Positions 25,890 to 41,487 are shown, counted from the first letter of the stretch. The stretch: DNA of 52,848 nucleotides from Myxococcota bacterium (GCA_964202365.1 CAXNIN010000001.1:1-52848); one strand, 5' to 3'. Notes: generated by a model not told the origin, from the letters alone. Numbers and translations: made by a program.

Positions 25890-26760
25890 CGAGGAGGGCG
25901 TCGAGGAACCCCGACCACCCGCAGGTTTTGCGGTGGGAGCAGGCGGCCTTTCGCTTCCGTCGCGGGTCGATCAGGAACCACACCGACGACCGACCGCACG
26001 CGGGGCACGGGATCTCCTTCGCGCTCACCGCCCCGACCCGCGCGCCGAGCCGTTGCGCGGCGCGCTCGCGGACCTCGGGATCGTTGTTCAGCCGGTACTG
26101 GGCCACACGACGGGCCTGGTCCATGCGCACGGGCACTGGCGGCAGGGGGCGTCGGGGCGTGGGCGGGGCGTCGTCCTCGGGCACGAGGCGCGGACCGGCG
26201 AGCACGCCGTCGACATCGACGGCGTGACCGTCGCGGTGCTCGTAGACCGCCAAGTGCAGGCGCTCGGCGGGGCAGGCGGGGATGTACCAGAGCCGGGCGA
26301 CATCGCGCGCTTTCCGATCAGCGTGGCCGCCGAGGTCGGAGTCGAGCGCCGACCACACCTTCGCGTACTCGCGCGCCGACAACGGACGCGAAAGCACGAG
26401 CACGACGCGGAAGCAGTTGTCGTCGTCGCCCGCCGTCTTGTGGCTGAACGACGTGTAGAGCAGGTAGGCGTAGCCGAGCCTTCGCAGCGCGGAGACGATG
26501 GCCCGCGCGACGGCGGCCGGCAGGTGGTCGAAGTCGAACACCAGCGCCGTGACGGACGTGACCCCGGCCTTGCCACGCCCCGCGCCCTCCGCGTAGGTGG
26601 CGAACGACACTGCGGGCGTGCCCTTCTTCAGCGCGCGCTCGATGTGGCGACGGAGGGCCCGAGGCAGCGGGGCCGCGTCGGGCCGGGGGATCGCGTCCAG
26701 CTCGTTGTCGAAGTGGACGTAGGCCATGACGTGCTCGGAGACAGACACGAGCACGCTCAT
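25858..26760 (-). CDS. Primase-polymerase (AEP superfamily, VirE-N/BT4734-like) with a C-terminal zinc ribbon
   Basis: ATG 26760 ('MSVLVSVSEH') within track ORF 25858..26931. 'ALVFDFDH' (DxD), 'LLYTSFSH', 'FRVVLVL'. C-terminal 'CPACGRSSVWF...CSHRKTCGW'. Confidence 0.7.
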   Translation of the reverse strand: MSVLVSVSEHVMAYVHFDNELDAIPRPDAAPLPRALRRHIERALKKGTPAVSFATYAEGAGRGKAGVTSVTALVFDFDHLPAAVARAIVSALRRLGYAYLLYTSFSHKTAGDDDNCFRVVLVLSRPLSAREYAKVWSALDSDLGGHADRKARDVARLWYIPACPAERLHLAVYEHRDGHAVDVDGVLAGPRLVPEDDAPPTPRRPLPPVPVRMDQARRVAQYRLNNDPEVRERAAQRLGARVGAVSAKEIPCPACGRSSVWFLIDPRRKRKAACSHRKTCGWSGFLDALLDAACGGVDVQ

Positions 26761-26912
26761 CGGCGACCTCCGCGACGGCCCTGCGGGCGGTAGGGGCAGG
26801 GCGGCGGGCCGACGTGCAGACCGCGCCGGTCGAACTTCGGCGGCGACGGCGGCTTGTGCGGCGAGGGCGGCCCCTTCGGGCTCGGGGGCTGCGCCGGTGG
26901 ACGCTTCTTCAT
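26757..26912 (-). CDS. Possible small Pro-rich basic protein
   Basis: 51 codons. ATGA overlaps at both ends (26909-26912 and 26757-26760) argue for translation. The Pro/Arg-rich composition could equally be a GC artefact. Confidence 0.3.
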   Translation of the reverse strand: MKKRPPAQPPSPKGPPSPHKPPSPPKFDRRGLHVGPPPCPYRPQGRRGGRR

Positions 26913-27136
26913 CGGGCACCGCCAGCGGCACGGGCGGCGGCTTCGTCTTCGCGGTGCCACGAGAGAAGCTCGCGGCAGAAGCCGAACAGGTTCGACCGCA
27001 TCGCGACGGCCCGGTCGCGCGAGATCCGTTCGTGGGTACGGGGCTGGAAGACCCGGATGATCGGGTCGAGGGACGGGTCGGCCGTCGCCGTTGAAGCGGG
27101 AATTCTGGCGCTTGGCAAAGGGAGCCTCTTGAGCAC
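26909..27136 (-). CDS. Possible small protein; first gene of the replication operon
   Basis: 75 codons with a GTG start at 27136. Partly balanced composition ('MRSNLFGFCRELLSWHRE'). ATGA-coupled to the next ORF. Confidence 0.35.
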   Translation of the reverse strand: MLKRLPLPSARIPASTATADPSLDPIIRVFQPRTHERISRDRAVAMRSNLFGFCRELLSWHREDEAAARAAGGAR

Positions 27137-27197: not shown

Positions 27198-29237
27198 CTA
27201 CGCCCCCAAGTCCCAGACGGTCGACGGCGACACGTAGCTCGGATGGATCCCGTGGATGTTCTTGATGTTCTCGCTCAAGTGTTGCACCAGGCCGCTGTTG
27301 TCCGCGAGCTTCTGGAACGCTGTCGCGATGTGCTTGCGGGTACGCTGCCGAGCGGCCTCCATAGCGGGGTTTTCCTTCTTGATCCGCCCCCCCGGTACCA
27401 CGCTCGCGTTCCGATAGGTGGCGAGTGCCGCCAGCTCACGCTTGATGTCGATGATGGCGTCGGCGTCGGTCATCTCCTCGGCCTCGGCCAGCTGCTCCTC
27501 CAACGCCTCCCGTCGCTTCTCCACGGCGCCGAGGGTCTTCGCGTCGGTCTTGTCGCCGAGGTCGCGGGTCGCCCGTCTCGGAAGCACGTTCCCAGCAAGA
27601 TCGAGCACGCTCACCCGCTTCCCGTTCGCAGCGAGCAGCTTGTGGAGCACTCCCATCCCCAACGTGTCTGGAATGTGACCACCGGGATCGCCAGGAAAGC
27701 AGATGAACCAGGTACTACCATCTTTCTTAAAGACGTGCGTTGTGGTTGCCGAACTCGCGGATGCTCCGGACTCGGGGCGGTCGCGGCCGATCAGCAGCAT
27801 CGGCAGAGAGGTCGCCGGAAGCCCGCGCGAGGTGATGCTTCGGCGTTGCTCGCCGAACACCCTGTCAAGCACGCCAGCGACGGTGTTCCCGTGCCGGCGA
27901 TGCAGATCGAAGAGCGCCCGCAGCGTCTCGTCGGTGCTGGGAACGGTGGCCTCCAGCGCCCCGCTGATCGCCCTGGCGGCTTCGCCAAAACTCTGGAGGA
28001 AGGTGGCAGGGTCCTTCATAGTCGCCCACCGGTCGGCGGCGTCCACGTAGGCGACGGCGTACAGGCGGTCGACCTCCTTCGCGATCGGATCGCTGAAGAG
28101 CTGGTGGCCGTAGGTCTTCTTGTCCTCCTCGAAACGCAGCCCGAGCGACTCCAGCGCGACCCGCCGATCAACGCATTGCGAGCAGATGCCACAGTGCGGC
28201 TCGTCTTTACTCCGGTTCGTGACGTGCGCGCAGCTATTGGTTGCCAGGATGGCGTGCGTCATCTCTGCGGGGATCAGGCGTCCAATCACCTCGGCGCGGG
28301 TCAGGTAGAGGAAGGGGTTCTCGATGGTGAAGGGCCGGTCAAACACGCACGACAGCAGCCGGGCGAAGTCGCGGATGCCAAGGGGGTGGGTCGTGCGAGA
28401 TGCGGCTGCGCCAATCACCTGCTGGGAGACAGGCAGGTTGAACGAGACAATACCATTCTCATAAAACGTGAACCGGTCCTTGCCCGTCAGCGCTGCCACC
28501 GCGCCTGCCAGGGCGGTGAACAGGAACGACCGGGTACGTTGCGAGCGCTCACGGTCCATGCCCTTGCCGTGCCGGGGCGTGCGGATCCCGACGCGTGCGG
28601 CGGTGAGGCCGGGGTACCGCTCGTTCAGTAGGCGCAGCGCGTTGTCCTGCGACGTGATCGGGATTGGCGACGGACGATGGCTGACGAAGATGACTCTCCG
28701 ACCCTGCGATAGCTGGTCCACGGCCCCTGAGAACGAGTCCAGCCCCCCAGAAAGAAGGGAGATGGAATCGACGTGATCCCACGGAAGGTAGGTCGCGCGG
28801 TCGGGCTGGCGAAGCGAAAGCTGGCGGGAGTCGCGCACAAGCCGGGGCACGAACTCGAATCCGAAGGTCTCGTCTGCGACAAATCCGAGCGCCCTGCAGA
28901 GGGTGTCGGTGACTTCGCGCTGCCGCCAGAATTCGACGTCGAGCACAGGAATTCGGAACTGCCAGTTTCTGTGCCAGGTCGCGCCGAGATTGACTGCGTC
29001 CAAGTCACCACGGAACACCATCCCGTCGGCGGTGAGCACGTACGCTGCGATCAGCAGAAGATCTTCAATGCGCGGCGGAAGTGTCCCGGTGAGGCACCGT
29101 TCGATCCCGTCGATACCGACGGTCAGATTGCAGCCGTCGGCAGATGTCGGTCCGGCGCGCACGCGGACGGCGTCCTCCGGTCCCGCGCCGGCCGCGAGCT
29201 CGCCGCAGAGAACCAGCCGCGTCCGGGGCTGGTTCAC
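27198..29237 (-). CDS. QueC-like PP-loop ATPase with extra N- and C-terminal domains (679 aa)
   Basis: GTG 29237 overlaps the upstream TGA (GTGA). PP-loop 'LLSGGLDSFSG' is encoded at 28734-28751. 'TRSFLFTALAGAVAAL...FYENGIVSFNLP' is also present. QueC-type Cys cluster 'SCAHV...HCGICSQCVDRR'. The N-terminal ~155 aa and C-terminal ~250 aa have no recognised motif. Confidence 0.8.
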   Translation of the reverse strand: MNQPRTRLVLCGELAAGAGPEDAVRVRAGPTSADGCNLTVGIDGIERCLTGTLPPRIEDLLLIAAYVLTADGMVFRGDLDAVNLGATWHRNWQFRIPVLDVEFWRQREVTDTLCRALGFVADETFGFEFVPRLVRDSRQLSLRQPDRATYLPWDHVDSISLLSGGLDSFSGAVDQLSQGRRVIFVSHRPSPIPITSQDNALRLLNERYPGLTAARVGIRTPRHGKGMDRERSQRTRSFLFTALAGAVAALTGKDRFTFYENGIVSFNLPVSQQVIGAAASRTTHPLGIRDFARLLSCVFDRPFTIENPFLYLTRAEVIGRLIPAEMTHAILATNSCAHVTNRSKDEPHCGICSQCVDRRVALESLGLRFEEDKKTYGHQLFSDPIAKEVDRLYAVAYVDAADRWATMKDPATFLQSFGEAARAISGALEATVPSTDETLRALFDLHRRHGNTVAGVLDRVFGEQRRSITSRGLPATSLPMLLIGRDRPESGASASSATTTHVFKKDGSTWFICFPGDPGGHIPDTLGMGVLHKLLAANGKRVSVLDLAGNVLPRRATRDLGDKTDAKTLGAVEKRREALEEQLAEAEEMTDADAIIDIKRELAALATYRNASVVPGGRIKKENPAMEAARQRTRKHIATAFQKLADNSGLVQHLSENIKNIHGIHPSYVSPSTVWDLGA

Positions 29238-30013
29238 TTCGCCCCCATCGTCAACTCGTCCCTGATCTTCTTCAGGGAGTAGGCGACGAATCGACTCGCG
29301 TGCTCCTCATCAAGCTTGCCCTCGAAGCGCGCCTTGGAGATCCATCCCGACGCGAACTTCTCCACGATCCGGGCGGCTTCCTGACAGTGTGTTCGCAGCC
29401 CTTCCTCGAAGGCTCGCTGGCCAGCCAACCCGGCGTGAGCCTGGTCGGGGCCGGAGTGCAGCGGGAGTTCGCGGGCGATGAAATGGGCGAGCGTCTTCTC
29501 GGTGAGCCGGGCGAAGAACGCGCGCGCAAGCCCGCCAAACTCCTTGTCCGTGGATCGCGCCGCCAATGCATCCTGCGCGCTCTCGACGTTCCGGTCGGGA
29601 AAGAGGCCCATCTTCCGCGGCTGGCTGAACTCGGCGAGCGTCTCGGCCGCCGCCATTTCCGCCATCTCGCCGAGCGCGGACCGCGACCCTTGCGAGGCCA
29701 CCCAGGCATCCACCGCGGTCGTGAGGCCGGAGGCGAGATCGGCAGCGGTGGGCGCAGCCGCCGCCACCGACACGCCCGCCTCGGACAACGCGGCGGCGAA
29801 GTTGCCCTCCTTCCGCGACGCCTGAGAAACCTGGAGAAGGAGCCAGAACGAGCGAACGAGGGCCGGATCATCCGAGAGCGCCTTCAGATTCTCTTGCACC
29901 ACGTCCATCGTGGCCGCCGCCACCTGCGACGCTTCCGCGCCCGCCCCCACGAGCGCGACGACCTGCTCCCACTTCTGCGACTTGGGCAGCGTGCCGAGGC
30001 GAACGTGGCCCAC
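29234..30013 (-). CDS. Hypothetical alpha-helical protein coupled to the QueC-like gene
   Basis: Start placed at GTG 30013, 31 nt after the Res stop. Upstream codons of track ORF 29234..30136 overlap the well-supported Res C-terminus. About 259 aa, Ala/Glu/Leu-rich. Its TGA overlaps the QueC-like GTG. Confidence 0.55.
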   Translation of the reverse strand: MGHVRLGTLPKSQKWEQVVALVGAGAEASQVAAATMDVVQENLKALSDDPALVRSFWLLLQVSQASRKEGNFAAALSEAGVSVAAAAPTAADLASGLTTAVDAWVASQGSRSALGEMAEMAAAETLAEFSQPRKMGLFPDRNVESAQDALAARSTDKEFGGLARAFFARLTEKTLAHFIARELPLHSGPDQAHAGLAGQRAFEEGLRTHCQEAARIVEKFASGWISKARFEGKLDEEHASRFVAYSLKKIRDELTMGAK

Positions 30014-30044
30014 TACGGCACCCGCGGGGGACGCGCGTCGGTGC

Positions 30045-33000
30045 TCACAGCGTCCCCTGCACCACGAGCACCTCGACGAACCGGGCGACGAACTTGAGTC
30101 CCTCCACTTCTGCCGGGAGCGGGCGGTGAGCGGCATTCGCGCTCTCGGGGCTCAGCCACGAGCGTCCTTCACGGTCTCGGGTCCAGCGTTTGAACGTGAA
30201 GCCTCCGAGTTCTGGGTCACCCGCCTCCTCCAGCCGTGCGATGAGCCGGTCCCCCAGGACCGCGGCCGCCACTGACGGTTCGCCGAAGTGTTGCCACAGG
30301 CACCAGGCGCCGTCGGGTGCCACCTTGTCCATCGAGTCGCCGATGATCTGGGCGGCAAACAGGCCCTTCCTCACTCGATGCGTGAGCACCTCGACGTAGC
30401 CCAGCAGCTCGGGCGGCTCGCCCGTGAGGAACGCTCCCGCCGCGGCTTTGAGCGAGTAGGCGGGCACGGCCACCGTGTTCCGGTCGTCCACGATCTCGTC
30501 GCGGCGAAGGAGCCGCAGCGCGGGCCGTCTCCCGGGCGTTGGGACAGGCAACGACTCCCACCACGCCTCGGTCTTGCCCGTCACCACGCGATAGTCGATG
30601 CCCAGGGCGGCGAAGTACCGCGCGGCGATTCGGACCTTCCTCCCCTCGTTGGCGAAGCGCAGCTTGTCCAACTCCACGCTGCCCTTCGTCTCTCGGACCA
30701 GCTCCAGACTTGGCGGCCCTCCGCCCGGAAGGCGAACGAGCCCCCAATCCGGGTTGTACTTGTGGATCACCTTCGGCATCTCGATCTTGAACTTCGGGGG
30801 GAACTTGAAATACACGGCGAGGTCGCCCGTGACCGGCTCCAGGCGACGCTGGACGAATTCTCGCTCAACGTCCGAGTCCACCTGAACGAGATCGTAGAGC
30901 GAGGCTGGACCGCCCTGCACCACTTCCTTCTGCGGATAGGGAATCGTCGGCGTGAGGAGGTCTTCCGGCCCGTGGGGATCTCCGAGCAGACCGCCCGCCG
31001 GGGTGTACCGCACACGGTCGGCAACGTGATCGGCCAACCCTTCGTTCACGCCGTCCACGAAGGTGTTCGCCCATCCCTCCGGGTTCTTGAAGATCCCCGC
31101 CTTCTTCTCGGGCAGAAGGCCGTCGAAGATGCGGATGAGCGTCTCCCGCGTCAAGAACGTCTCCTCCGCCGCCCGGGTGATGAAGTCGGGGACGGGCTGC
31201 CTCTCGGTCGCGATGCGCTGGTCGGGTGAGCGGACGTTGTCCACCCCGGTCGCCTGGAACGTGTACACCTCGCTCTCGCTGACCTCGACGTCGTTGGCGA
31301 ATCGGACCCGACGCTCGCCGAACTGGTCCCAAATCTTGGTGACTCGAAACCCCCGAAGCTGCTGGTTCTTCTTGCCGAGGTCGTTGCCGACCGCGACCGT
31401 GACCTTCCACTCATCCGGCTTCACGAACCCGAGCGTGACTTCCACGCCCGCCGAGGAACGCATCTCGATCAGGAGCTGCGCCTGGCCCGGGCCCGCGGAC
31501 TTGGCGACGCGGACAACGTACTCGGTCACCACGAAGCGACCCCGCGACACCGTGATGACGGGCTCCGGAAAACGAGCCGCGTTCAACCGGGAGATGCACT
31601 CGGCCACCAGCGCGTCCGTTTCGACCGCGAGGTCGTAGACGAGCCGCTGATTGAGGCGCTTCCAGAACACCTTGAACTCAGGAAGGTTGTACAGCTTCTC
31701 GCGGCGGCGGGCCGTCGCCTCGTCCTTCCTTTTCGGCGGCGGCGGCGGAGTCTCGCCGTCGTTGACGTAGTCTTGCTGAAGGTTGCGGACGTAGTTCTCG
31801 TAGCTTTCGTTGGCCACCACGGTGAGGACGTTGATGCTCGCGCCCTCGGGCCGGTTTCCCTTCTGGTCCACGCAGAGTCGGAGTCCGCGCCCGATCTCCT
31901 GGCGCTTCTTGGTGGTGCTCGTGGTCTGGTTCAGCGTGCAGATTTGGAACACGTTTGGGTTGTCCCAGCCCTCCTTCAGCGCGGAGTGCGCGAAGATGAA
32001 CGCGACGTTCTTCTTCTCCTCCTTCCCATCGGGAAATGAAAGCAGAATCTCCTTCTCCCGCATGATCAGGTTGAAGGCCGCCTTGACCGCTGCTCGCGCC
32101 TCCTCGGAATCGGCACCCTCGTCCTGAATGTAGACGTCGCGCTCCTGCTTGGTGTCCTTGTCCTTCTTCGTCGTCTTTGCGAAGTAGGCGGCTCGGACGT
32201 TCGCCGGTTCGAGGCCCGACCAGTGCGGCCGACCAACCTTCAGCTTGTTGAACGTCTCGTCGAAGAGGCGGCGGATCGTGCCGTTCTCATCGACGTAGTT
32301 GGCCACCCGGTCGATGAAGAACAGGGACAACACCTTCACGCCGCGCTCCCGAAGCTCGTCCTGACGCTTCATGTGCGCGACCAACGTCTCTTCGATCTGG
32401 GCTCGCCACACGTCCACGCGGCTGCCCACCACCTCGTCGTTGGTGGTGAGCGTCAGTCCGCCTTCGGAGCCGCCGAGGAGCTTGACCGAACTGGCCTTGC
32501 CCTCCGCGTCGTAGTTGATCTCCGCGACCTTCATCCCTTCGTGCTCCGCCAGCCCCGTGAGACGCATCAGGTCATCGTTCTGTCTGAGCGTCACCGACTT
32601 CTCGGCGGTCTTGCCGTCTACGAGCGTGAGAACCCGGACCTTGGCCGAGATCGGTGGGCCCCGGTGGACCTCCTCCAAACGAAGCAAATTCGCGGAAAGT
32701 GAGCCGAGTTGAGCCACGCCGACCACCTGGATCTGCTTGACCAATCCATGCCTGAATGCCTGGACGGGGGTGAGCCGGTACACGGGGTTCGGTTGCTGCC
32801 CCTTGCGGTGCGTGGCGGAGTACCGGAGAACGAACAGCGGCTTGAGCGTGCGGATCGCCTCCTTCGAGGCTTCGGACCCCATGTTCTGAGGTTCGTCGAG
32901 CACCACGACCGGCCTGGTGGCTTGCACCCACTCGAACGGCCTGCGCTTCCCCGTCAGCTTCTCGGTTCCCTTGTAGAAGTTTCGCGACGCGGAGTTGAAC

Positions 33001-33584
33001 GCCTGCTGGGTCATCACCATGATGATCGGGAAGGTGCTCTTCGCGAAACTCCCGATGCGAGCGATCTGCGCGCCGTCGTACTCGAACAGGTGGAAGTTGG
33101 TAACACCGTACAGCGCGGCGAAGTGGGCCTTGGTCACCTCGAAGCTCTTCTTCACGCCTTCGAGGATCGCCACGGAGGGCACGACGATGATGAACTTCCG
33201 CAGCCCGTACTTCTGGTACAGCTCGATCATCGTCCGGAAGTACACGTAGGTCTTGCCGGTACCTGTTTCCATCTCCAGCGTGAAGTGGTGGCACCGGTAG
33301 GAGTCGTTCGACACGCCGTTGAGGAGCGTCCCATCGTCGGGTTCCAGATTCCCGACGGGGACGAGAGCGTCCGGGTGAGCCTCGTTGTGGCGCTCCTGTA
33401 CCGCGCGCAGGTTCTCCTCCAGCCAGTAGTCAGCGAGGTCGTCGGCCTCCGGCGCGTTCGGGACGATTTCGTCGAGAAACGTCCCCAGCGCCGACTTGTC
33501 GAGGCCCACGAAAAGGTCCACAACGGCCGCGATGCCCTCGATCTGGTGGGGTTGGTTCGGAGAAAATGTGAATTGGAATGCCAT
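30045..33584 (-). CDS. Type III restriction enzyme Res subunit (SF2 helicase plus PD-(D/E)XK nuclease) with a C-terminal S24 (LexA/UmuD-like) domain
   Basis: ATG 33584 ('MAFQFTFSPNQ'), 10 nt after the Mod stop. 'LEMETGTGKTYVY' (motif I), 'VVVLDEPQNMG' (motif II), 'RQEIGRGLRL' (motif VI). Nuclease 'YNPDWGLV...LVRETKG'. C-terminal 'KAAAGAF...IIGDSMDKVAPDGAWCLW...FTFKRW'. Confidence 0.88.
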   Translation of the reverse strand: MAFQFTFSPNQPHQIEGIAAVVDLFVGLDKSALGTFLDEIVPNAPEADDLADYWLEENLRAVQERHNEAHPDALVPVGNLEPDDGTLLNGVSNDSYRCHHFTLEMETGTGKTYVYFRTMIELYQKYGLRKFIIVVPSVAILEGVKKSFEVTKAHFAALYGVTNFHLFEYDGAQIARIGSFAKSTFPIIMVMTQQAFNSASRNFYKGTEKLTGKRRPFEWVQATRPVVVLDEPQNMGSEASKEAIRTLKPLFVLRYSATHRKGQQPNPVYRLTPVQAFRHGLVKQIQVVGVAQLGSLSANLLRLEEVHRGPPISAKVRVLTLVDGKTAEKSVTLRQNDDLMRLTGLAEHEGMKVAEINYDAEGKASSVKLLGGSEGGLTLTTNDEVVGSRVDVWRAQIEETLVAHMKRQDELRERGVKVLSLFFIDRVANYVDENGTIRRLFDETFNKLKVGRPHWSGLEPANVRAAYFAKTTKKDKDTKQERDVYIQDEGADSEEARAAVKAAFNLIMREKEILLSFPDGKEEKKNVAFIFAHSALKEGWDNPNVFQICTLNQTTSTTKKRQEIGRGLRLCVDQKGNRPEGASINVLTVVANESYENYVRNLQQDYVNDGETPPPPPKRKDEATARRREKLYNLPEFKVFWKRLNQRLVYDLAVETDALVAECISRLNAARFPEPVITVSRGRFVVTEYVVRVAKSAGPGQAQLLIEMRSSAGVEVTLGFVKPDEWKVTVAVGNDLGKKNQQLRGFRVTKIWDQFGERRVRFANDVEVSESEVYTFQATGVDNVRSPDQRIATERQPVPDFITRAAEETFLTRETLIRIFDGLLPEKKAGIFKNPEGWANTFVDGVNEGLADHVADRVRYTPAGGLLGDPHGPEDLLTPTIPYPQKEVVQGGPASLYDLVQVDSDVEREFVQRRLEPVTGDLAVYFKFPPKFKIEMPKVIHKYNPDWGLVRLPGGGPPSLELVRETKGSVELDKLRFANEGRKVRIAARYFAALGIDYRVVTGKTEAWWESLPVPTPGRRPALRLLRRDEIVDDRNTVAVPAYSLKAAAGAFLTGEPPELLGYVEVLTHRVRKGLFAAQIIGDSMDKVAPDGAWCLWQHFGEPSVAAAVLGDRLIARLEEAGDPELGGFTFKRWTRDREGRSWLSPESANAAHRPLPAEVEGLKFVARFVEVLVVQGTL
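30048..30482 (-). other. S24 peptidase-like (LexA/UmuD-type) domain fused to the Res C-terminus
   Basis: The last ~145 aa contain: an 'AAAG' Ala-Gly candidate cleavage site (30435-30440); 'GDSM' with Ser at 30333-30335; and 'FKRW' with Lys at 30189-30191. The codons were checked against the plus strand. Confidence 0.65.
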
Positions 33585-33594
33585 CTCGTGCCCC

Positions 33595-35547
33595 CTACAG
33601 CGTCTTGACGCGGTTGAGGACGTCGGCGATGCGGACCTTGGTCCGGTCGGTGAGCGCGTGCTCGCGACAGACGAAGAGATCGTGCTCGAACGCGGCCAGC
33701 GCATCCACCGTCGCTCCGGCGATCTGGTCGTCGAGGCAGACGAGCAGCCGCGACGGGATCGACAGGTGCTCCACTCGGGTGACGACGTTGTCGAGGAACT
33801 CTGGCGCGGGCGAGCGTGCGGAGTCCAAGGGGTAGCCCTCCAGGAGCATCACCTCGACGAGGAGTCCGTCAGTGGTCCACCCCGCCATCAGCCCGTTCTG
33901 TGCGCGGAACAACGCAGTGAGCGTGAGGGCGTCCTCGCCGTCGTAGGGTACCCATCGCTGGACGTTGCTCCGGTCTTCGCGCAGAACGCGGAATCCGAAG
34001 TCGCCCTTCGGATTCTCCTTCTTGAGCTGCTTGGAGACGCGACGCAGGCGCTCCTTGGTGATCGCGTCGATGGTCTTCAGGCCCAGTGCGGCGGCGTTCT
34101 TCCCGGACTCGACTTCCTCGTTCACCTCCACGTCGAGCTGGACGAGGATGAAGCGCCGGTAGGTCGCGAACCTCTCATTCGCGAGCCAAACCCCGTGCCC
34201 GGTAGAGCCCGACCCGGCGAAGAAGTCCAGCACGATGTCATCGGGGCCGGTGAGATAGTCCACGAGGCGCGCCAGATCGTCGAACGGCTTCGGGTTGTCG
34301 AAAACCCGCTTACCTCCGAACAGGTCGTCGAATCGCTGCGCTGCGGTCTGCGCGTAGCTGTACGCCACGGAGGGGAGCACCTGAACCGCCGATTCGAACA
34401 GGTTGGAACGAACCCGGGGGACTGTCGTCTCGTCTGGCCCAAATACTACCCGACCTGCCGCTACCTCCTCCCAGAATCGCTCGGGCCGCGGGTAACGCCA
34501 TCCACTCCTGGGTTTCTTGCAGGACCGCTTCGTCGTCGGATGGATCACGTCATAGGTGGGGCCACCGCCGCCGGGCCAGTTGATGTTGCCATCGTCTCGG
34601 TACGGCCCGCGGTCGTCCACCTTGGTGTACCTCGCGAGGGGCTTCCGCGGATCATCGGCGGCAAGGCCATCGAGAAAGCTCTTCAGGCCCGTCGCGACCT
34701 TGGCCCAATCGCTCAAGTGCTGCGCCTTGAGGCGCTCGAATAGCTCCTTGACCTCCTCGACGCCCTCTTTGGGAGCACGGAGTTGGGTGTCAAGTTCGCC
34801 GAGCTTCTCCTTACTCTTGGCGTAGACCAGCATGTACTCGTGCCCGACCGAGAAAAACTTCGCGTCGTTCTTCCGATTCCGGTCCCACACCAACGTCGCG
34901 ATGAAGTTCTCCTCGCCCATGATGGCGTTGAGTAAGAGGCGGAGGTTCGCCACCTCGGCGTCGTCGATGCTGACGACGAGGAAGCCGTCGTCTCGAAGCA
35001 GATGCCGCGCCAACGAAACGCGCGGGTACATGAAGTTGAGCCAGTTCGAATGGAACCTTCCGCTGCTCTTCGGGTTGCTGGTGAGGCGACCGTGAAGGTC
35101 GGCCTGCCGCGTGTCCAACAGGTAGAGTTCGAGGTCAACCGCGAATTTGTCCTTGTAGACGAAGTCCTCGCCCGTGTTGTAGGGGGGGTCGATGTAGATC
35201 AGCTTCACCCTTCGGGCGTAGCTTTTCTGGAGGAGACGGAGGATCTCCAAGTTGTCGCCGACCAGCAGGAGGTTCTGCGTCGACGCCTCATCCACCCCCT
35301 CGCCGGCGAGCGGGCGGAGGGTCGCCGAGCCGGCGAGCGCTCCCAGCCGTCGAGCGGTCTGGTGCCCCGGCCAGGCGAGGCCATAGTGCTCGTCGTCCGC
35401 GCCGAAGTCCGCCGCAGTGCCCTCCAAAGCGGCGCGGAGGTGGTCCATGTCCACACCACCATCCGTGAACACCTCGGGAAACAGCTCCTGGAGCTGGGCC
35501 AACCGGCTGGCGTCAGGGGACTCGCGTTCGATTCGTTCAACGGGCAT
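33595..35547 (-). CDS. Type III R-M Mod subunit (beta-class N6-adenine/N4-cytosine DNA methyltransferase)
   Basis: ATG 35547 ('MPVERIERE') preceded by GGAG, 2 nt after the nuclease stop. 'LIYIDPPYNTGEDF' (motif IV DPPY) precedes 'VLDFFAGSGSTGHGV' (motif I), the beta-class order. Confidence 0.88.
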   Translation of the reverse strand: MPVERIERESPDASRLAQLQELFPEVFTDGGVDMDHLRAALEGTAADFGADDEHYGLAWPGHQTARRLGALAGSATLRPLAGEGVDEASTQNLLLVGDNLEILRLLQKSYARRVKLIYIDPPYNTGEDFVYKDKFAVDLELYLLDTRQADLHGRLTSNPKSSGRFHSNWLNFMYPRVSLARHLLRDDGFLVVSIDDAEVANLRLLLNAIMGEENFIATLVWDRNRKNDAKFFSVGHEYMLVYAKSKEKLGELDTQLRAPKEGVEEVKELFERLKAQHLSDWAKVATGLKSFLDGLAADDPRKPLARYTKVDDRGPYRDDGNINWPGGGGPTYDVIHPTTKRSCKKPRSGWRYPRPERFWEEVAAGRVVFGPDETTVPRVRSNLFESAVQVLPSVAYSYAQTAAQRFDDLFGGKRVFDNPKPFDDLARLVDYLTGPDDIVLDFFAGSGSTGHGVWLANERFATYRRFILVQLDVEVNEEVESGKNAAALGLKTIDAITKERLRRVSKQLKKENPKGDFGFRVLREDRSNVQRWVPYDGEDALTLTALFRAQNGLMAGWTTDGLLVEVMLLEGYPLDSARSPAPEFLDNVVTRVEHLSIPSRLLVCLDDQIAGATVDALAAFEHDLFVCREHALTDRTKVRIADVLNRVKTL

Positions 35548-35549
35548 TC

Positions 35550-36392
35550 CTAATCTCCGAGGTCCGCCGCCCGGTGGAGCGTCGGGAGGTTGGCTTCGAT
35601 CCATTCATCGCGCTGCTGGTCGGCGCCGAAATCCGACATCGAGGTGGCGAGTACGGTGTCGGGCCGCGCGCCTTGCTGCGCGCGCAGCACGAACTGGCGG
35701 TAGCTCGTGCAGGAGAACCGCACGTCGCAGTTGAGGCACACGTCAGTCCCGAAGGGCACGCGACCCCCGGGCCGCGAGGGGCCGCGCAGGACGTCCACCG
35801 GTGGCGGCTTGAAGTCGTGCGCCTCGATGGCATCGACGACCCGCCCGAAGTCGGCCACCACGTCCGCGACAATCTCCTGCCGCACCTCGATGTCGAGCAC
35901 CGGCTGCCAGGTCGCCATCGCGGCCTCGATGCGCTTGGGGTCGCCGGTACTGATGGCGTGCTTCAACGCCCGCGGTGGGCGGGTTGCGATGACGGCGACC
36001 TTGTTGAGCGGCTGGCTTCGGAGGGTCTGCCAGATGTGCGCGTAGAGGTTGAGCTGCCGGTAATGCGGCTCGACGTGCTCCCGCGCCGCTTCGGCATCGA
36101 GATAGGTTTTCAGGTCGTACATCGTGGCGGACTCGTCGTCCCGGACGATGTCTACGATGCCTTCGAGGGTGTACCTCCGCCCCGCTGGGCTGCGCTGCTC
36201 CGGAAGGGTCAGCCGGACTTCGGTCTCAGTGACGGTCTCCGCCAGCTCGCGAAGGCGGCGCCAGTAGAGGAGCACCTGCTCCAACGCCGACGCCTTGACG
36301 TCGGGCGTCACCGCACGCCCCGTCTCCTCGCGAAGTCGCTCGAAGTTGGCCTCGAATGCTTCGAGGATGAAGCCCTCCAGGTCATCGGTCAC
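35550..36392 (-). CDS. PD-(D/E)XK nuclease, Cas4/RecB-like, with a C-terminal CX2CX5C cluster
   Basis: GTG 36392 overlaps the UvrD-like TGA (GTGA). 'LEGIVDIV', 'MYDLKT', 'YRQLNLYAHI' (D / D-x-K / QxxxY). 'CLNCDVRFSC' is encoded at 35709-35738. Confidence 0.7.
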   Translation of the reverse strand: MTDDLEGFILEAFEANFERLREETGRAVTPDVKASALEQVLLYWRRLRELAETVTETEVRLTLPEQRSPAGRRYTLEGIVDIVRDDESATMYDLKTYLDAEAAREHVEPHYRQLNLYAHIWQTLRSQPLNKVAVIATRPPRALKHAISTGDPKRIEAAMATWQPVLDIEVRQEIVADVVADFGRVVDAIEAHDFKPPPVDVLRGPSRPGGRVPFGTDVCLNCDVRFSCTSYRQFVLRAQQGARPDTVLATSMSDFGADQQRDEWIEANLPTLHRAADLGD

Positions 36393-38968
36393 GGTGCGGC
36401 TCCTTCCGCACGCGCGGCGATCAGGCGGTTGTGGAGGTCCTCGATCGTCTGGTGGACGAGGCTTCCGAAGAACATGCTCTGCGTACGGCTCGGCGCGAAC
36501 CCGTACTTCCGGAACAGCATGTATTGGCGCGGGCAGCGAAGGTAGCCGAGGTAGTCCCCGGTGTAGCTGAACGCGCGTGCGACATCCCCGATCTCTTCCT
36601 TTGCGGCTGGAATAGCGCCGATATCGAGATCGGGAATTCGCCGAATGTCCCCACCGAGGATCTCGCGAAACGCCGGGTCAACCTGCTGGCCGGCGCCCAC
36701 GAGATGCGGCAAGACAAGCAGGTTCTTCGCCCGGGAGAGCGCCACATAGAACATCCGCATCGCGTCAAAGTCTCCCATGCGGTCGAGCGGCTCGCCGCCC
36801 GCGCGCCCGAACGGGCGGACGATCTCCTCCACGCGCCGCACGCGGCGGTTCGCGGGCCGGACGTTGCCGAGCACGACGACCGGGAACTCCAACCCCTTCG
36901 CCTGGTGCACTGTCAGAAACGGGATGCGCCCCTTGGGGAAGGGATCGTCAGCGTCCTCGTACTCACCCTCGCCGAGACGGAACAGTGCGAATAGAAAGCC
37001 AGCGTAGAAGGTGCCTTGCAGGACGCCGCTCTCGACGGCGCTCGCTGTCACCACGGAGGGGAACGTGTCGATGTAGCGGGCGAGGTATCCGCTCGTCAGC
37101 GCGAGGTTGCAGACCGGGCCCTCGTCGGTCCCGACTTCGGCAAGGTCGAACATCGCCTTGAAGTGGTCGAAGCCGACGAGGCGGTAGAAGATGTCGAGCA
37201 CTCCCCAGTCCACCGAGGTGGCACGGTTCAGAATGTACTGGAGCGACAGCGGTTCGCCCCGTGTCAACCGGTCCTCCGCGATCCGGTCGAGGTAGCTGGT
37301 CCCGATCCCCCGCTTTCCCCGATCCGACAGTCCGCCCGCCGAGAGCAGCGCCCGCTTGTGGATGCTCGGCTGGTACGGCGCTGTCAGGGACCACTTCTTG
37401 GCCTCCACCGCTTTCACCAGCGACGCATAGTCCTTGCGGATCGTCAGCAGTTCGGCCTGCCGCTCCTTCACGAAGGCGGCGAGCCGGGCATCGGACTTGA
37501 CGAGCGCGTGGGCCGCGGTTCCACAAGCATCCAGCCAGTCGTGGAAGTCTCGGTAGCCGCCCTTGTTGAACTCCTCGTCTCGGGGGGGGCGGCCGAGGAC
37601 CATTCCGAGCAGCCCCACCACGGCGGTGGGCTCCTCCGCCTCGAGGAAGCGCTTGGCCCGCGGCGCGTAGATCTTCAAGCCGTGCTGTTCAAGGGCGGCC
37701 TGCAGGCGTCCGACGGCCACGCTTTTCAGGGACGGGAAAAGGACCGCGATTTGGTTCGGATCGGCCACCCGCTTCTTGCGGATGAGCCCGTGGATCAGCC
37801 CGGCGAGTTCGGCCGCGACCTCCTCTGGGCCGCCGGGCGTGCTCGCGACGACCGCCACGCCCCGGTCGACGCGGTGGGCATGGATCCCCTTGTCGTGCAG
37901 CCGAAAGGAGCCGCCGCCTGGCCTTGACCAGTCTGCGCGTTCCATGAACTGCGTGTACAGACCGACGATCTGGTCCCGCGAGCGGTAGTTCGTCGCCAGC
38001 TCGATCCGCCTCGGGGCGGTCGAGAGCTTGGCGACGCACCGCTCCGGGAACTGGACGAAGTTCTCCACAGTCGCGCCTCGGAAGCGGTAAAGCGCCTGGT
38101 CGTCGTCGCCGACTACGCAGAGGTTCTTGCTCCCCGCGGCGAGTTGGAAGAATAGCAGCTCCTGGATCGCGTTGGTGTCTTGGTACTCGTCCACGATTAC
38201 GTGGTCGAACGGGGTGTTCTCGCCCGCAGCCCCCCCGAGCGCCGAATACGCAGCCTGCTGGAGCAGGGCGAGGTCCACGCGCTTCGAGCCGAGACGGTCG
38301 CGGTAGAGCGCGTACAACTCGACGAGGGAACGCGCGTCCTCCCCAACCTGCGCGAGCAGGGCCTCGGGCTGGAGGTTCTCCTCCGAGAACCGGTTGAACA
38401 GCGCGAGCAGGTTGGACACAGCCTTGTGCTTGCTCGGCGTGGCGCCCTCCTCGAACTCGCTATTGATGCGCTCCCGAAGGGCGGGCAACTCGCCTTCGTG
38501 AGCGAGGCGCTCCACGGCTGCGCGCCAGAATCCCCCCGCCGCCACGAGGAAGTATTGGTCGAGCGCATCCACCACGGCGGGCGCGACGACACGAGAGCGC
38601 CCATCCGAGAGCTGACGGTCCCGAATCAGCCGGTGGCAGAGCGAGTGGACAGTTCCGACGTACATTTTTGAGAGGTCGAAGGTTCGGCCAGTCCGGTTGG
38701 TCACGAGCCCGAGCAGCGAGATCAAGCCGTCCTTGAGCTGCTTCGCGGCCTTCTCGGTGAACGTGCTGAGGAAGATGCGCTCGGGGGCGATGCCGTGGAC
38801 GACGATGAGGTTGACCGTCCGCCAGAGCAGCACTCGCGTCTTCCCCGATCCCGGGCCCGCGACGAGGAAAAGGGGGCCATTATCGTGGAGGATTGCGGCG
38901 AGTTGGTTCGCGTTGGGGGTGAAGTCCGCAGCTTGGAACAGCTCGGACAGCAAGGGGTCGGTATTCAT
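36389..38968 (-). CDS. UvrD/Rep/PcrA-type SF1 DNA helicase
   Basis: ATG 38968 ('MNTDPLL') overlaps the TGA of the upstream gene (ATGA). 'LFLVAGPGSGKTRVL' (Walker A), 'HVIVDEYQDTN' (motif II), 'ATNYRS', 'LTVHQAKGLEFPVV', 'MFYVALSRAKN'. Confidence 0.9.
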   Translation of the reverse strand: MNTDPLLSELFQAADFTPNANQLAAILHDNGPLFLVAGPGSGKTRVLLWRTVNLIVVHGIAPERIFLSTFTEKAAKQLKDGLISLLGLVTNRTGRTFDLSKMYVGTVHSLCHRLIRDRQLSDGRSRVVAPAVVDALDQYFLVAAGGFWRAAVERLAHEGELPALRERINSEFEEGATPSKHKAVSNLLALFNRFSEENLQPEALLAQVGEDARSLVELYALYRDRLGSKRVDLALLQQAAYSALGGAAGENTPFDHVIVDEYQDTNAIQELLFFQLAAGSKNLCVVGDDDQALYRFRGATVENFVQFPERCVAKLSTAPRRIELATNYRSRDQIVGLYTQFMERADWSRPGGGSFRLHDKGIHAHRVDRGVAVVASTPGGPEEVAAELAGLIHGLIRKKRVADPNQIAVLFPSLKSVAVGRLQAALEQHGLKIYAPRAKRFLEAEEPTAVVGLLGMVLGRPPRDEEFNKGGYRDFHDWLDACGTAAHALVKSDARLAAFVKERQAELLTIRKDYASLVKAVEAKKWSLTAPYQPSIHKRALLSAGGLSDRGKRGIGTSYLDRIAEDRLTRGEPLSLQYILNRATSVDWGVLDIFYRLVGFDHFKAMFDLAEVGTDEGPVCNLALTSGYLARYIDTFPSVVTASAVESGVLQGTFYAGFLFALFRLGEGEYEDADDPFPKGRIPFLTVHQAKGLEFPVVVLGNVRPANRRVRRVEEIVRPFGRAGGEPLDRMGDFDAMRMFYVALSRAKNLLVLPHLVGAGQQVDPAFREILGGDIRRIPDLDIGAIPAAKEEIGDVARAFSYTGDYLGYLRCPRQYMLFRKYGFAPSRTQSMFFGSLVHQTIEDLHNRLIAARAEGAAP

Positions 38969-39354
38969 CGGCGGGTTTGTGCGCGCCAGAGGCTCCACGC
39001 CGTCGCCGCAGTCACGGGACCCCACCCGTGCACCGCGGCCAGCTTCGTCTTGAACTCGGCCTCGCGGCCCGCGCTCGCGAGGGTCGGCAGGCCGTCGAGT
39101 AGCCCCTTGGAAACGGCCTCCATGAGCTGCTGGTGGCGGTACCAGAGGATCGGGAGGAACCCGCCCCGTGCGTAGCCGGCGTCCGTCATCGCTGCGATCA
39201 GCGCGTCCCTGTCCATGCCCGCGGCGCGGGGTGCATCGAGCAGCCCCCGGGTCTGGAACGCCGGGAGCAGGGCGGCCGCCCGGTCGGTGCCGAAGCCGTT
39301 GACGGCGAGCATGGCGGTCACCAGGTGACCAATCTGTTCGGAAGTTAGGGACAT
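38965..39354 (-). CDS. Small helix-hairpin-helix protein resembling the N-terminal part of HhH-GPD (EndoIII/OGG-type) glycosylases but lacking the catalytic loop
   Basis: ATG 39354 ('MSLTSEQIGH'). 129 aa, helical. HhH-like 'LAAVHGWGPVTAATAWSLW' lies ~7 residues from the C-terminus, so no GPD/Asp segment follows. First gene of the coupled operon. Confidence 0.45.
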   Translation of the reverse strand: MSLTSEQIGHLVTAMLAVNGFGTDRAAALLPAFQTRGLLDAPRAAGMDRDALIAAMTDAGYARGGFLPILWYRHQQLMEAVSKGLLDGLPTLASAGREAEFKTKLAAVHGWGPVTAATAWSLWRAQTRR

Positions 39355-39427: not shown

Positions 39428-39637
39428 TCATGCGGCACCGCCCGGCCCGCGGCCACGGGATGCCTCGGCGTTGCCGGCGCGCACCCACTCGTCCACCTCG
39501 GCCCGCTTGAACTTCCAGAACCGGCCGACCTTGTGCGCTGGCATCGAGCGGTCGGCGATCCAGGAGTACACGGTGTCGCGGCTGACCCCGAGGTACTCGG
39601 CAATCTCGTCCACGTTCAGCCACCGGTCGTCGATCAC
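39428..39637 (-). CDS. Excisionase-family (HTH_17/MerR-like) DNA-binding protein
   Basis: 69 aa. 'WLNVDEIAEYLGVSRDTVYSWIADRSMPAHKVGRFWKFKRAEVDEWV' is the classic excisionase-type winged HTH. Divergent from the integrase gene. Confidence 0.85.
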   Translation of the reverse strand: MIDDRWLNVDEIAEYLGVSRDTVYSWIADRSMPAHKVGRFWKFKRAEVDEWVRAGNAEASRGRGPGGAA

Positions 39638-41452: not shown

Positions 41453-41487
41453 CAGTCCGTTGCTCTAACCAACTGAGCTAAGCGGGA
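41411..41487 (-). tRNA. tRNA-Asn (anticodon GTT), CCA encoded
   Basis: The reverse complement folds by hand into a cloverleaf: acceptor TCCCGCT/AGCGGGA, D arm GCTC-AGTTGGTTA-GAGC, anticodon arm ACGGA-CTGTTAA-TCCGT, variable loop GGGTC, T arm CCCTG-TTCAAGT-CAGGG, discriminator G plus CCA. 77 nt. Confidence 0.93.

What the first reader, a model, noticed from the sequence alone, without database searches (positions are those of the whole stretch)
27198..39354. Seven-gene start/stop-coupled operon joining a type III R-M to UvrD/Cas4-like, HhH and QueC-like modules: candidate composite or undescribed defence system
All seven genes lie on the minus strand with almost no intergenic space.
- HhH protein to UvrD-like helicase: ATGA overlap at 38965-38968.
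- UvrD-like to Cas4-like nuclease: GTGA overlap at 36389-36392.
- Nuclease to Mod: 2-nt spacer (stop 35550, ATG 35547).
- Mod to Res: 10-nt gap.
- Res to ORFan: 31-nt gap.
- ORFan to QueC-like: GTGA overlap at 29234-29237.

Each module alone is familiar. I do not recognise this combination as a named system: an SF1 helicase with a PD-(D/E)XK nuclease, Mod/Res, a Res-fused S24 domain, and a QueC-like PP-loop enzyme with no TGT, QueD/E or FolE partner.

The operon sits in the cargo position next to the integrase and excisionase of a mobile element. It also looks lower in GC than its surroundings. Hand counts of single 60-nt lines gave about 53% at 27661-27720 and 28441-28500, against about 72% at 6001-6060. 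That pattern suggests nested acquisition.
Basis: partly seen in the sequence, partly recalled or inferred. Interest (0 to 1): 0.85.

Follow-up and report, generated by a model that had tools for sequence, protein, structure and literature searches.

The report
Three defence modules stacked, not one
The seven tightly packed genes are real, but they are separate anti-phage modules stacked in a mobile element: a restriction system with its own helicase-nuclease, an unnamed two-gene relative of the QatBC system, and one small unassigned gene.

Summary
Seven minus-strand genes sit at the stated coordinates with the stated overlaps and gaps, beside a serine recombinase, an HTH_17 Xis-like gene and tRNA-Asn. 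GC is about 5 points below the flanks.

The "one composite system" reading is not supported.

- **g2-g5** (UvrD-like helicase, Cas4-like PD-(D/E)XK nuclease, type III Mod, Res) is a conserved four-gene cassette. Helicase adjacency holds in 64/66 loci, Mod downstream in 43/43 and Res in 24/28, in Deinococcus, Geobacter and metagenomes, never with g1, g6 or g7. This link was predicted in 2017 (PMC5704561). I found no experimental test.
- **g6-g7** is a separate two-gene module, adjacent in 80/80 genome loci across many phyla and without the helicase-nuclease/Mod/Res cassette.
  - g7 is a QatC-family enzyme (Foldseek to the QatC structure, E 7e-20).
  - g6 is not an orphan. It has at least 154 homologues with an invariant N-terminal Met-Gly-His.
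  - g6 shows no detectable homology to QatB. QatA and QatD are absent.
- **g1** is a rare small protein. Three of the four relatives I could place lie next to other restriction or modification loci.

Only a 92%-identical sibling element repeats the whole array. A 90%-identical g6 follows a type I restriction gene instead.

Verdict: a defence-island stack. The QatBC-like pair is a new variant of a known kind.

The parts
41411..41487 (-). tRNA-Asn (GTT); likely integration site. Its 3' part overlaps the end of the recombinase ORF.
   Evidence: ARAGORN; Rfam tRNA, 67 bits. No second copy of its 3' part in the window.
39785..41452 (+).
   Evidence: Pfam Resolvase 2.7e-22, Recombinase 3.7e-15, Zn_ribbon_recom. 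Same gene in the 92%-identical sibling contig.
39428..39637 (-). Xis-like helix-turn-helix gene (69 aa), 73 nt upstream of g1 on the same strand.
   Evidence: ORF and translation. The equivalent 68-aa gene in the sibling contig is PF12728 HTH_17.
38965..39354 (-). g1: 129-aa protein of a rare family with a C-terminal G-x-G-P helix-hairpin-helix-like motif. Not a fixed part of either module.
   Evidence: No Pfam, PADLOC or NCBIfam hit. 76 clusters among 1.84 billion representatives. Alignment A6. Weak Pol beta HhH match, E 0.03. Absent from all g3-anchored loci and from 79/80 g6-anchored loci. Relatives lie beside MmeI-like/McrBC and a DUF499/DUF1156 system.
36389..38968 (-). g2: UvrD-like SF1 helicase (859 aa). 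Its last ~55 residues are the N-terminal segment of a Cas4-type nuclease domain, including the first cluster cysteine.
   Evidence: Pfam UvrD-helicase 5.5e-51 and UvrD_C; PDDEXK_1 profile positions 10-56 at aa 809-852. Cys conserved in 78/78 homologues.
35550..36392 (-). g3: stand-alone Cas4-like PD-(D/E)XK nuclease core (280 aa) with CxxCx5C.
   Evidence: PDDEXK_1 profile positions 66-246, 3.4e-09. Cas4 models. 463 homologues; the 120 listed are 225-296 aa. Invariant D81, D93, K95, Q113, Y117, C219, C222, C228.
33595..35547 (-). g4: type III Mod methyltransferase (650 aa; DPPY and FxGxG motifs).
   Evidence: PADLOC MTase_III 1.9e-150. Pfam N6_N4_Mtase 9e-30. Motifs read in the translation.
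30045..33584 (-). g5: type III Res (1179 aa) with helicase motor, PD..ExK endonuclease and a C-terminal LexA/S24-like domain.
   Evidence: PADLOC REase_III 1.1e-165. Pfam ResIII and RE_endonuc. NCBIfam type III endonuclease 3e-81.
30045..30497 (-). S24/LexA-like C-terminal domain of Res, with GDSM serine, FKRW lysine and a KAAAG stretch upstream.
   Evidence: Pfam Peptidase_S24 E 1.1e-3 on the fragment. Profile A5 hits LexA 6a2r at 1.2e-4, with Ser and Lys invariant. Present in 5 of 28 related cassettes.
29234..30013 (-). g6: 259-aa all-helical partner protein with invariant N-terminal Met-Gly-His, Pro10 and Trp15. Predicted substrate of g7.
   Evidence: At least 154 homologues. Alignment A1. 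AF2 model pLDDT 84, ten helices, floppy residues 1-7. No match to QatB by hmmsearch, hhalign or Foldseek. Followed by a g7 homologue in 80/80 loci.
27198..29237 (-). g7: QatC-family PP-loop enzyme (679 aa): QatC-like body (about aa 1-480) plus an extra C-terminal module.
   Evidence: PADLOC QatC 7.6e-52. NCBIfam QatC 1.2e-54, 186 bits against a cutoff of 280. PDB QatC 9vlk 3.4e-31. Foldseek 9y01_B E 6.8e-20, TM 0.75. Invariant SGGxDS, RTTHP and CGxCxxCxxRR.
27201..27740 (-). Extra C-terminal module of g7 (about aa 500-679): three strands plus two helices, then four long helices. No family assignment.
   Evidence: Secondary structure of the model. Only weak coiled-coil-type Pfam hits. Relatives carry other fused domains: PF18742 nuclease, PF00486, PF00149, PF12802.
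25858..26931 (-). Primase-like gene of the mobile element (context).
   Evidence: No Pfam hit. By eye it resembles the N-terminal part of the large ORFs that I read as P4-type primases, which follow g7 in 17 other loci.
24642..25889 (-). VapE-like replication-module gene of the mobile element (context).
   Evidence: Pfam VapE-like_dom 1.8e-80.

Best explanation
The 12-kb co-directional array is a stack of independently evolving anti-phage modules. They sit in the cargo slot of an integrative element made of tRNA-Asn, a serine recombinase, an Xis-like gene, the cargo, and primase-like and VapE-like genes.

**Module A (g2-g5): a type III restriction-modification system with a dedicated helicase-nuclease.**
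- Mod methylates host sites. Res-Mod cuts unmethylated incoming DNA. This follows from what is established for type III enzymes.
- The UvrD-like motor and the Cas4-like nuclease form a two-polypeptide enzyme. Its nuclease domain and four cluster cysteines are shared between the subunits.
- Inferred: this enzyme unwinds and degrades DNA from the breaks that Res makes, as AddAB or RecBCD would.
- In this clade Res also carries a LexA-like self-cleaving domain. That could tie restriction to RecA-sensed DNA damage (speculative).

**Module B (g6-g7): a self-contained relative of the QatBC core.**
- Inferred by analogy with QatC/QatB and Cap9/CD-NTase: g7 uses ATP at its SGGLDS loop to activate a carboxylate, possibly a 7-deazaguanine acid. 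It then joins it to the free amine of Gly2 of g6 after Met removal.
- The modified complex then blocks phage by an unknown step.
- The variable C-terminal module of g7 may act as sensor or effector.

**g1** is a small DNA-binding-type accessory with no fixed partner.

The modules are probably co-transcribed here, but they do not need each other.
For: **Module B is independent**
- A g7 homologue directly follows g6 in 80/80 loci from Myxococcota, Acidobacteriota, Planctomycetota, Alphaproteobacteria and other phyla. None of these carries UvrD or PDDEXK, and one has Mod/Res on the other strand.
- Start/stop overlap between g6 and g7 is the rule.
- QatA, QatB and QatD give 0 hits in 82 loci, while QatC hits all of them.
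- The gene immediately upstream varies: SNF2/ResIII helicases 8, DUF2924 7, serine recombinases 6-7, integrases 5, type I S subunits 3, BrxL 2, DUF499 2.
- Recurrent neighbours are defence genes.
- The 90%-identical g6 follows a type I HsdR/YgjP pair. The 79% one follows a different Res. The 54% one follows an SNF2 helicase.

**Module A is a unit**
- Order and strand are conserved in Deinococcus and in a Geobacter conjugative element, and in metagenome loci. Helicase adjacency is 64/66, Mod 43/43, Res 24/28.
- The association was described in PMC5704561.
- The split nuclease is family-wide.

**g7 is QatC-like:**

**g6 has substrate-like features:** invariant M1 G2 H3 and a floppy N-terminus.

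**QatBC alone can defend, and Gly2 of QatB is essential:** PMC13279940.

**The whole array recurs only in a 92%-identical sibling element**.

**The widest internal gap (31 nt) is at the A/B boundary**.
Against: - No function was tested. Defence roles rest on homology and neighbourhood.
- The 31-nt g5/g6 gap, with no terminator-like site in any gap, fits a single transcript. Functional cross-talk in this element therefore cannot be excluded.
- About 13 of 67 g6-g7 pairs sit within 50 nt of the 3' end of another restriction- or BREX-type operon. That could mean more than hitch-hiking.
- g6 is not detectably related to QatB, so the substrate role is an analogy.
- The chemistry of QatC itself is unresolved. 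No activity has been reconstituted, and the CDG-binding Tyr/Asp are replaced.
- The role of the helicase-nuclease has never been shown experimentally.
Confidence: 0.78

Rival explanations
1. The seven genes are one integrated, undescribed defence system. The QatC-like enzyme and its partner would regulate or arm the restriction enzyme and the helicase-nuclease.
For: The genes are co-directional with gaps of 31 nt or less, and no terminator-like site lies in the gaps. The same array occurs in a second contig.
Against: That contig is a 92%-identical sibling of the same element, so it is not independent evidence. g6 and g7 are found in 0 of 81 nuclease-anchored loci. None of 80 g6-anchored loci has the helicase or nuclease. 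A 90%-identical g6 sits in another context.
Confidence: 0.05
2. g6-g7 is a plug-in accessory for DNA-modification-based defence operons in general (type I, type III, BREX, DUF499 systems). It is not an autonomous system and needs some upstream restriction-type partner.
For: In the four closest relatives, g6 starts 4-31 nt after a restriction or helicase gene. About 13 of 67 loci show a gap of 50 nt or less to such genes.
Against: Most loci have 250-600 nt of non-coding DNA upstream, or a divergent recombinase or integrase as neighbour. The partners are unrelated to one another. The canonical QatBC works alone against some phages.
Confidence: 0.12
3. g7 is a metabolic QueC-type enzyme that makes a 7-deazaguanine base for DNA or tRNA modification, which is how many databases label its relatives.
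For: Pfam QueC hit at 6e-06. Several sources name homologues '7-cyano-7-deazaguanine synthase'.
Against: - Only the C-terminal Zn-ribbon part matches the QueC profile.
- The best matches by far are QatC.
- The residues invariant in the g7 family correspond to the QatC-specific motifs, which replace the QueC substrate motifs in QatC.
- The seven products show no TGT, QueD, QueE or DpdA domain, and no such gene recurs beside g6-g7 in other loci.
- QatC fails to complement a queC deletion.
Confidence: 0.03

Closest known systems
QatABCD anti-phage system, specifically its QatB-QatC core (Gao et al. 2020; PMC13279940, PMC13376578, PMC13639016)
   Same: - g7 shares the whole QatC body: N-terminal extension, QueC-like Rossmann core and C-terminal helices (Foldseek TM 0.75 over 488 columns).
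- g7 keeps the SGGxDS loop, the RTTHP loop and the Zn cysteines.
- A ~260-aa all-helical partner is encoded just upstream with start/stop overlap.
- The partner has an invariant Met-Gly N-terminus on a flexible tail with conserved Pro and Trp.
   Different: - No QatA (KAP NTPase) and no QatD (TatD) in 82 loci.
- The partner is not detectably homologous to QatB by profile or fold.
- Its motif is MGH, not MGTS, and its tail is about 12 residues rather than 30-90.
- g7 is about 200-250 aa longer, with a variable C-terminal module.
- g7 scores below the NCBIfam QatC cutoff (186 against 280 bits).
- A RefSeq plasmid copy of the pair (Leptospira, L082) is annotated 'hypothetical protein' for both genes.
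UvrD-Cas4-like helicase-nuclease associated with type III Mod/Res (Hudaiberdiev et al. 2017, PMC5704561)
   Same: An SF1 UvrD-like helicase plus a Cas4-like PD-(D/E)XK nuclease with four cysteines, sitting directly upstream of type III Mod and Res. The authors predicted an ancillary role in defence.
   Different: The paper describes a fused protein. In this window and in the 463 g3 homologues found, the nuclease core is a separate 225-296-aa protein. The helicase keeps only the first segment, with the first cysteine. This clade's Res adds an S24/LexA-like domain.
Type III restriction-modification (EcoP15I/EcoP1I type)
   Same: Mod (beta-class N6-adenine methyltransferase motifs) is followed by Res (SF2 motor plus PD..ExK endonuclease). 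Both give strong model hits.
   Different: The system carries two extra conserved upstream genes (helicase and nuclease) and a C-terminal S24-like domain on Res.
Type IV CBASS Cap9/CD-NTase deazaguanylation (bioRxiv 10.1101/2025.04.06.647259)
   Same: A QueC-family enzyme is paired with a protein whose Gly2 amine is the acceptor. This gives a mechanistic template for g7 acting on g6.
   Different: There is no CD-NTase, Cap10 (TGT-like) or effector. Cap9 keeps the QueC substrate motifs, whereas g7 has the remodelled QatC-type site.
AddAB / AdnAB / RecBCD helicase-nucleases
   Same: A UvrD-like motor is combined with a RecB-family nuclease. AddB and Cas4 share the Fe-S cluster staple (own knowledge of these families).
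   Different: There is a single motor and a single nuclease domain, split across two chains. The genes are embedded in a restriction operon on mobile elements, not in a housekeeping repair locus.

Membership tests
QatABCD | QatC: QueC-family PP-loop enzyme with QatC-specific extensions and motifs | tested here: met
   PADLOC QatC 7.6e-52. PDB QatC 3.4e-31. Foldseek 9y01_B E 6.8e-20. Motifs invariant in A4. However, NCBIfam gives 186 bits, below its cutoff of 280.
QatABCD | QatB: partner protein homologous to QatB with an N-terminal MGTS motif | tested here: not met
   g6 against a QatB profile: hhalign probability 3.8%. No PDB sequence hit. No Foldseek hit although the library holds the QatB-QatC entry 9y01. 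tblastn with four QatB sequences finds nothing in 82 loci. The N-terminus is MGH. Only the Met-Gly feature and the gene position are shared.
QatABCD | QatA: KAP-family NTPase in the operon | tested here: not met
   None among the seven products. tblastn with five QatA sequences gives 0 hits in the window and 82 loci.
QatABCD | QatD: TatD-family nuclease in the operon | tested here: not met
   0 hits in 82 loci. The only window hit is a TatD-like ORF at 51811-52512, 22 kb away and beyond the tRNA.
Type III restriction-modification | Mod methyltransferase of the N6_N4_Mtase type with type III architecture | tested here: met
   PADLOC MTase_III 1.9e-150 over aa 12-641.
Type III restriction-modification | Res with ResIII helicase motor and C-terminal endonuclease, adjacent to Mod | tested here: met
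   REase_III 1.1e-165; ResIII and RE_endonuc. 10-nt gap to Mod.
Type III restriction-modification | Site-specific hemi-methylation and ATP-dependent cleavage between inverted sites | not testable with these tools
   Needs methylome sequencing and enzymology.
UvrD-Cas4-like / type III association (PMC5704561) | UvrD-like helicase and Cas4-like nuclease next to Mod and Res | tested here: met
UvrD-Cas4-like / type III association (PMC5704561) | Helicase and nuclease fused in one polypeptide | tested here: not met
   Separate ORFs with a GTGA overlap. Homologues of g3 are stand-alone proteins. The domain is split family-wide.
Gabija | GajA (OLD-family ATPase-TOPRIM nuclease) next to the GajB UvrD-like helicase | tested here: not met
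   g2 hits GajB models only through the shared UvrD fold. No GajA hit among the seven products.
Type IV CBASS | CD-NTase, Cap10 (TGT-like) and an effector together with the QueC-like Cap9 | tested here: not met
   None among the seven products in Pfam, PADLOC or NCBIfam. Cap9 is only a distant structural match, E 6.8e-5.
Dpd 7-deazaguanine DNA-modification island | DpdA (TGT-like) and DpdB/C with preQ0 synthesis genes | tested here: not met
   No such domains in the operon. DpdE-like helicases appear beside g6-g7 in other loci, but without DpdA.
Peptidase S24 (LexA/UmuD type) | Ser-Lys dyad in the S24 fold | tested here: met
   The profile hits LexA at 1.2e-4, with Ser55 and Lys103 of the fragment invariant. 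The single sequence is below Pfam threshold. Self-cleavage was not tested.

The most novel reading that the evidence does not exclude
g6-g7 founds a third branch of QueC-family protein-conjugating immune systems, after Cap9/CD-NTase and QatC/QatB.
- It would be a widespread, self-sufficient two-gene system.
- A QatC-like enzyme would modify Gly2 of a structurally new partner (MGH family).
- Interchangeable C-terminal or fused domains (wHTH, PD-(D/E)XK, metallophosphatase) would act as sensor or effector.

Separately, the type III cassette may be a restriction enzyme that brings its own end-processing nuclease and, in this clade, a RecA-responsive LexA-like switch.
Probability: 0.45. Interest if true: 0.65.

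Novelty: new variant of a known kind. Interest (0 to 1): 0.5.

Why it matters
The finding should be split rather than pursued as one exotic seven-gene system.

**The QatBC-like pair.** It is compact and found in many phyla. It is absent from PADLOC v2 and falls below the NCBIfam QatC cutoff. It also offers a second, unrelated partner protein on which to work out what QatC-type enzymes attach to an N-terminal glycine. That question is still open for QatABCD.

**The helicase-nuclease/type III cassette.** It has been a prediction since 2017. It is very widespread and could show how a restriction system secures destruction of cut DNA without relying on host RecBCD.

**Side features.** The nuclease split over two chains with shared cluster cysteines, and the LexA-like domain on Res, are concrete hypotheses that can be tested at the bench.

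Tried and rejected
- **Source record.** Exact look-ups of g6 and g7 found no contig and no name. The organism is unknown. The closest relatives are Myxococcota-type MAGs.
- **g6 as a diverged QatB.** Rejected at current sensitivity: PDB hmmsearch, hhalign against six QatB sequences, Foldseek and tblastn were all negative. I first suspected that the Foldseek library lacked QatB. The g7 search showed that it holds 9y01.
- **g2/g3 as a frameshifted pseudogene of a fused helicase-nuclease.** Rejected: the split is conserved in hundreds of homologues.
- **Short (~470 aa) g7 variants.** These were suggested by tblastn extents. ORF lengths show that 560-780 aa is the norm.
- **A conserved third gene beside g6-g7.** Clustering of all neighbouring ORFs found only antisense shadow ORFs, mobile-element genes and assorted defence genes.
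- **att repeats.** No second copy of the tRNA 3' part was found, which is expected for a serine recombinase.
- **Promoter and terminator scan.** Uninformative.
- **Literature.** I found no experimental paper on the UvrD-Cas4/type III cassette. I found no description of an MGH-partner QatC family.

Full report
**Observation**

The seven minus-strand ORFs exist as described. The junctions are exactly as reported: ATGA, GTGA, 2 nt, 10 nt, 31 nt and GTGA.

An eighth co-directional gene lies 73 nt upstream of g1. It is a 69-aa Xis-like helix-turn-helix ORF at 39428-39637. Its counterpart in a sibling contig is HTH_17.

A large serine recombinase at 39785-41452 diverges from it. The end of that ORF overlaps tRNA-Asn at 41411-41487. 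Downstream of g7 lie a primase-like ORF (no family hit; similarity noted by eye) and a VapE-like gene. The array is therefore cargo of an integrative element.

GC is 65.4% across the operon and 70-73% in the flanks. GC3 stays at 81-87%.

**What the proteins are**

- **g2** is a UvrD-like SF1 helicase.
- **g3** is a Cas4-like PD-(D/E)XK nuclease.
- **g4** is a type III Mod and **g5** a type III Res, both with very strong model hits.
- **The last ~150 residues of Res** are LexA/S24-like. The single sequence is sub-threshold. A profile of eight homologues hits the LexA catalytic domain at 1.2e-4, with the Ser and Lys invariant.
- **g1** has no family hit. It belongs to a rare family (76 clusters in 1.84 billion representatives). 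Its C-terminal G-x-G-P motif gives only weak helix-hairpin-helix matches.
- **g7** is not a generic QueC.
  - It matches QatC models at 1e-52 to 1e-54 and solved QatC at 3e-31.
  - Its AlphaFold model (pLDDT 81) superposes on QatC of the QatB-QatC crystal structure at E 7e-20, TM 0.75, over 488 columns.
  - The QatC signature residues are invariant in its family (compared with the motifs listed in PMC13329287).
- **g6** is not an orphan.
  - It has at least 154 homologues of 255-261 aa.
  - M1, G2, H3, L6 and W15 are invariant, and P10 is nearly invariant.
  - The model is a ten-helix protein with a floppy N-terminus.

**Is it one system?**

I anchored searches on two genes.

*g6 anchor.* A profile of g6 retrieved 80 loci from species-representative genomes of many phyla.
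- In all 80, a g7 homologue follows directly on the same strand.
- None has the helicase or nuclease. Only one has a related Mod/Res, and that is on the other strand.
- The start of g7 usually overlaps the end of g6.
- Clustering every neighbouring ORF found no conserved third gene.
- Canonical QatA, QatB and QatD give no hit in 82 such loci, whereas QatC hits them all.
- The gene immediately upstream varies among SNF2/ResIII helicases, DUF2924, serine recombinases, integrases, type I specificity subunits, BrxL and DUF499.
- Recurrent neighbours match DpdE/DrmD-like helicases, type I and type III restriction-modification, DUF499/DUF1156 and SoFic models.

*g3 anchor.* Homologues of g3 are stand-alone proteins (the 120 listed are 225-296 aa).
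- In Deinococcus, in a Geobacter conjugative element and in 80 metagenome loci, they sit between a UvrD-like gene and Mod-Res in the same order.
- Helicase adjacency is 64/66, Mod 43/43 and Res 24/28 where enough flank exists.
- None of these loci has g1, g6 or g7.

*The whole array.* The full seven-gene array recurs only in a contig whose nuclease is 92% identical, inside the same kind of element. The nearest other g6 relatives sit elsewhere:
- the 90%-identical g6 follows a type I HsdR C-terminus and a YgjP-like gene;
- the 79%-identical g6 follows a different Res-like gene;
- the 54%-identical g6 follows an SNF2 helicase.

The array therefore decomposes into g1, a four-gene cassette (g2-g5) and a two-gene module (g6-g7). 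The widest internal gap marks the boundary between the last two.

**Comparison with what is known**

*The four-gene cassette.* It matches an association described computationally in 2017. A monophyletic UvrD-Cas4-like helicase-nuclease has type III Mod and Res as its most common neighbourhood, and was predicted to be ancillary to defence (PMC5704561). I found no experimental follow-up.

The difference here is that the nuclease is split.
- The helicase ends with the first segment of the Cas4-type domain, including the first cluster cysteine. That cysteine is conserved in 78/78 homologues.
- g3 carries the catalytic D..D-x-K and Q-x-x-x-Y motifs and only the CxxCx5C cysteines.
- This implies an obligate two-chain nuclease with a shared metal cluster (inference).

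*The two-gene module.* Its closest known relative is the QatB-QatC core of QatABCD. [quoted passage not shown]

g6 occupies the position of QatB and has the Met-Gly start. It is not detectably homologous to QatB:
- hhalign probability is 3.8%;
- there is no sequence hit;
- there is no Foldseek hit in a library that does hold the QatB-QatC entry 9y01.

g7 is about 200-250 aa longer than QatC. Its relatives carry different fused domains among the 120 listed: PD-(D/E)XK nuclease PF18742 in 7, OmpR-type winged helix in 7, metallophosphatase in 2 and MarR-type in 1. That pattern is typical of exchangeable sensor or effector parts.

PADLOC v2 has no model for g6. NCBIfam places g7 below its QatC cutoff. 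A RefSeq plasmid copy of the pair is annotated 'hypothetical protein' for both genes. The papers I read do not describe this branch. One notes that only about a third of QatC-cluster genes have qatA or qatD nearby.

**Mechanism**

*Shown by sequence and structure prediction*
- The enzymes are of the stated kinds and their catalytic motifs are intact.
- The two units are inherited separately.

*Inferred*
- Mod/Res restricts unmethylated DNA.
- The g2-g3 enzyme processes the resulting ends.
- g7 adenylates a carboxylate and transfers it to Gly2 of g6.
- The modified complex interferes with phage through an unknown step.

*Speculative*
- The LexA-like domain lets RecA-sensed damage switch Res.
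- g1 is a DNA-binding accessory. Three of the four relatives I could place sit beside other restriction or modification loci: MmeI-like/McrBC and a DUF499/DUF1156 system. The context of the fourth was uninformative.

**Verdict**

The composite-system interpretation is largely refuted.

What remains of interest is a widespread, unnamed QatBC-like pair with a new partner family, and an untested but very common helicase-nuclease/type III cassette with unusual architectural details. I rate this a new variant of known kinds, of moderate interest.

Noticed in passing
window 36389-36560 (g2 C-terminus) and 35550-36392 (g3): The Cas4-type nuclease domain is split over two polypeptides. The helicase tail (SYTxDYLxYxxCPRQYM...LVHxTxEDLH) holds the first cluster cysteine in 78/78 homologues. 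g3 holds only CxxCx5C. This implies an inter-subunit metal cluster.
   Followed up: partly
window 30045-30497: Type III Res carries a C-terminal LexA/S24-like domain with an invariant Ser-Lys dyad. A KAAAG stretch upstream resembles the LexA self-cleavage site. The domain is present in only one clade of the cassette (5 of 28 loci).
   Followed up: partly
window 38965-39354; L178 10001-10393; L003 87-434: The small g1 family turns up beside unrelated restriction loci. One relative lies 75 nt after two MmeI-like methylase-nucleases plus McrBC. Another lies beside a DUF499/DUF1156/SNF2 system that is itself followed by a g6-g7 pair.
   Followed up: partly
L173, L174, L175; L003, L011, L037, L051, L055: The g6-g7 pair often sits within 50 nt of the 3' end of another DNA-modification-type defence operon (type I, type III, BREX BrxL, DUF499). 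That is about 13 of 67 loci, including all four closest relatives.
   Followed up: partly
L082 5069-7713 (Leptospira noguchii plasmid NZ_CP091938.1): A cultured-strain plasmid carries the same two-gene module (260 aa plus 621 aa) next to IS elements. Both genes are annotated 'hypothetical protein'. It is a convenient source for experiments.
   Followed up: no
window 41411-41487 and 39785-41452: tRNA-Asn overlaps the last ~40 nt of the serine recombinase ORF on the opposite strand, which probably marks one end of the element. The other end was not found.
   Followed up: partly
window 51796-52518 (-): A TatD-like ORF matches QatD at 29% identity. It lies 22 kb from g7, beyond the tRNA, so it is most likely the housekeeping TatD.
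   Followed up: no
window 16670-16909: A 12-nt tandem repeat (about 20 units of GTCGTCGCCSAG) that probably encodes a long acidic repeat. The coding strand was not checked.
   Followed up: no
window 44035-47943 (-): A 1302-aa ORF with a calpain-family cysteine protease domain (Peptidase_C2, 2.9e-15), which I believe is uncommon in bacteria.
   Followed up: no
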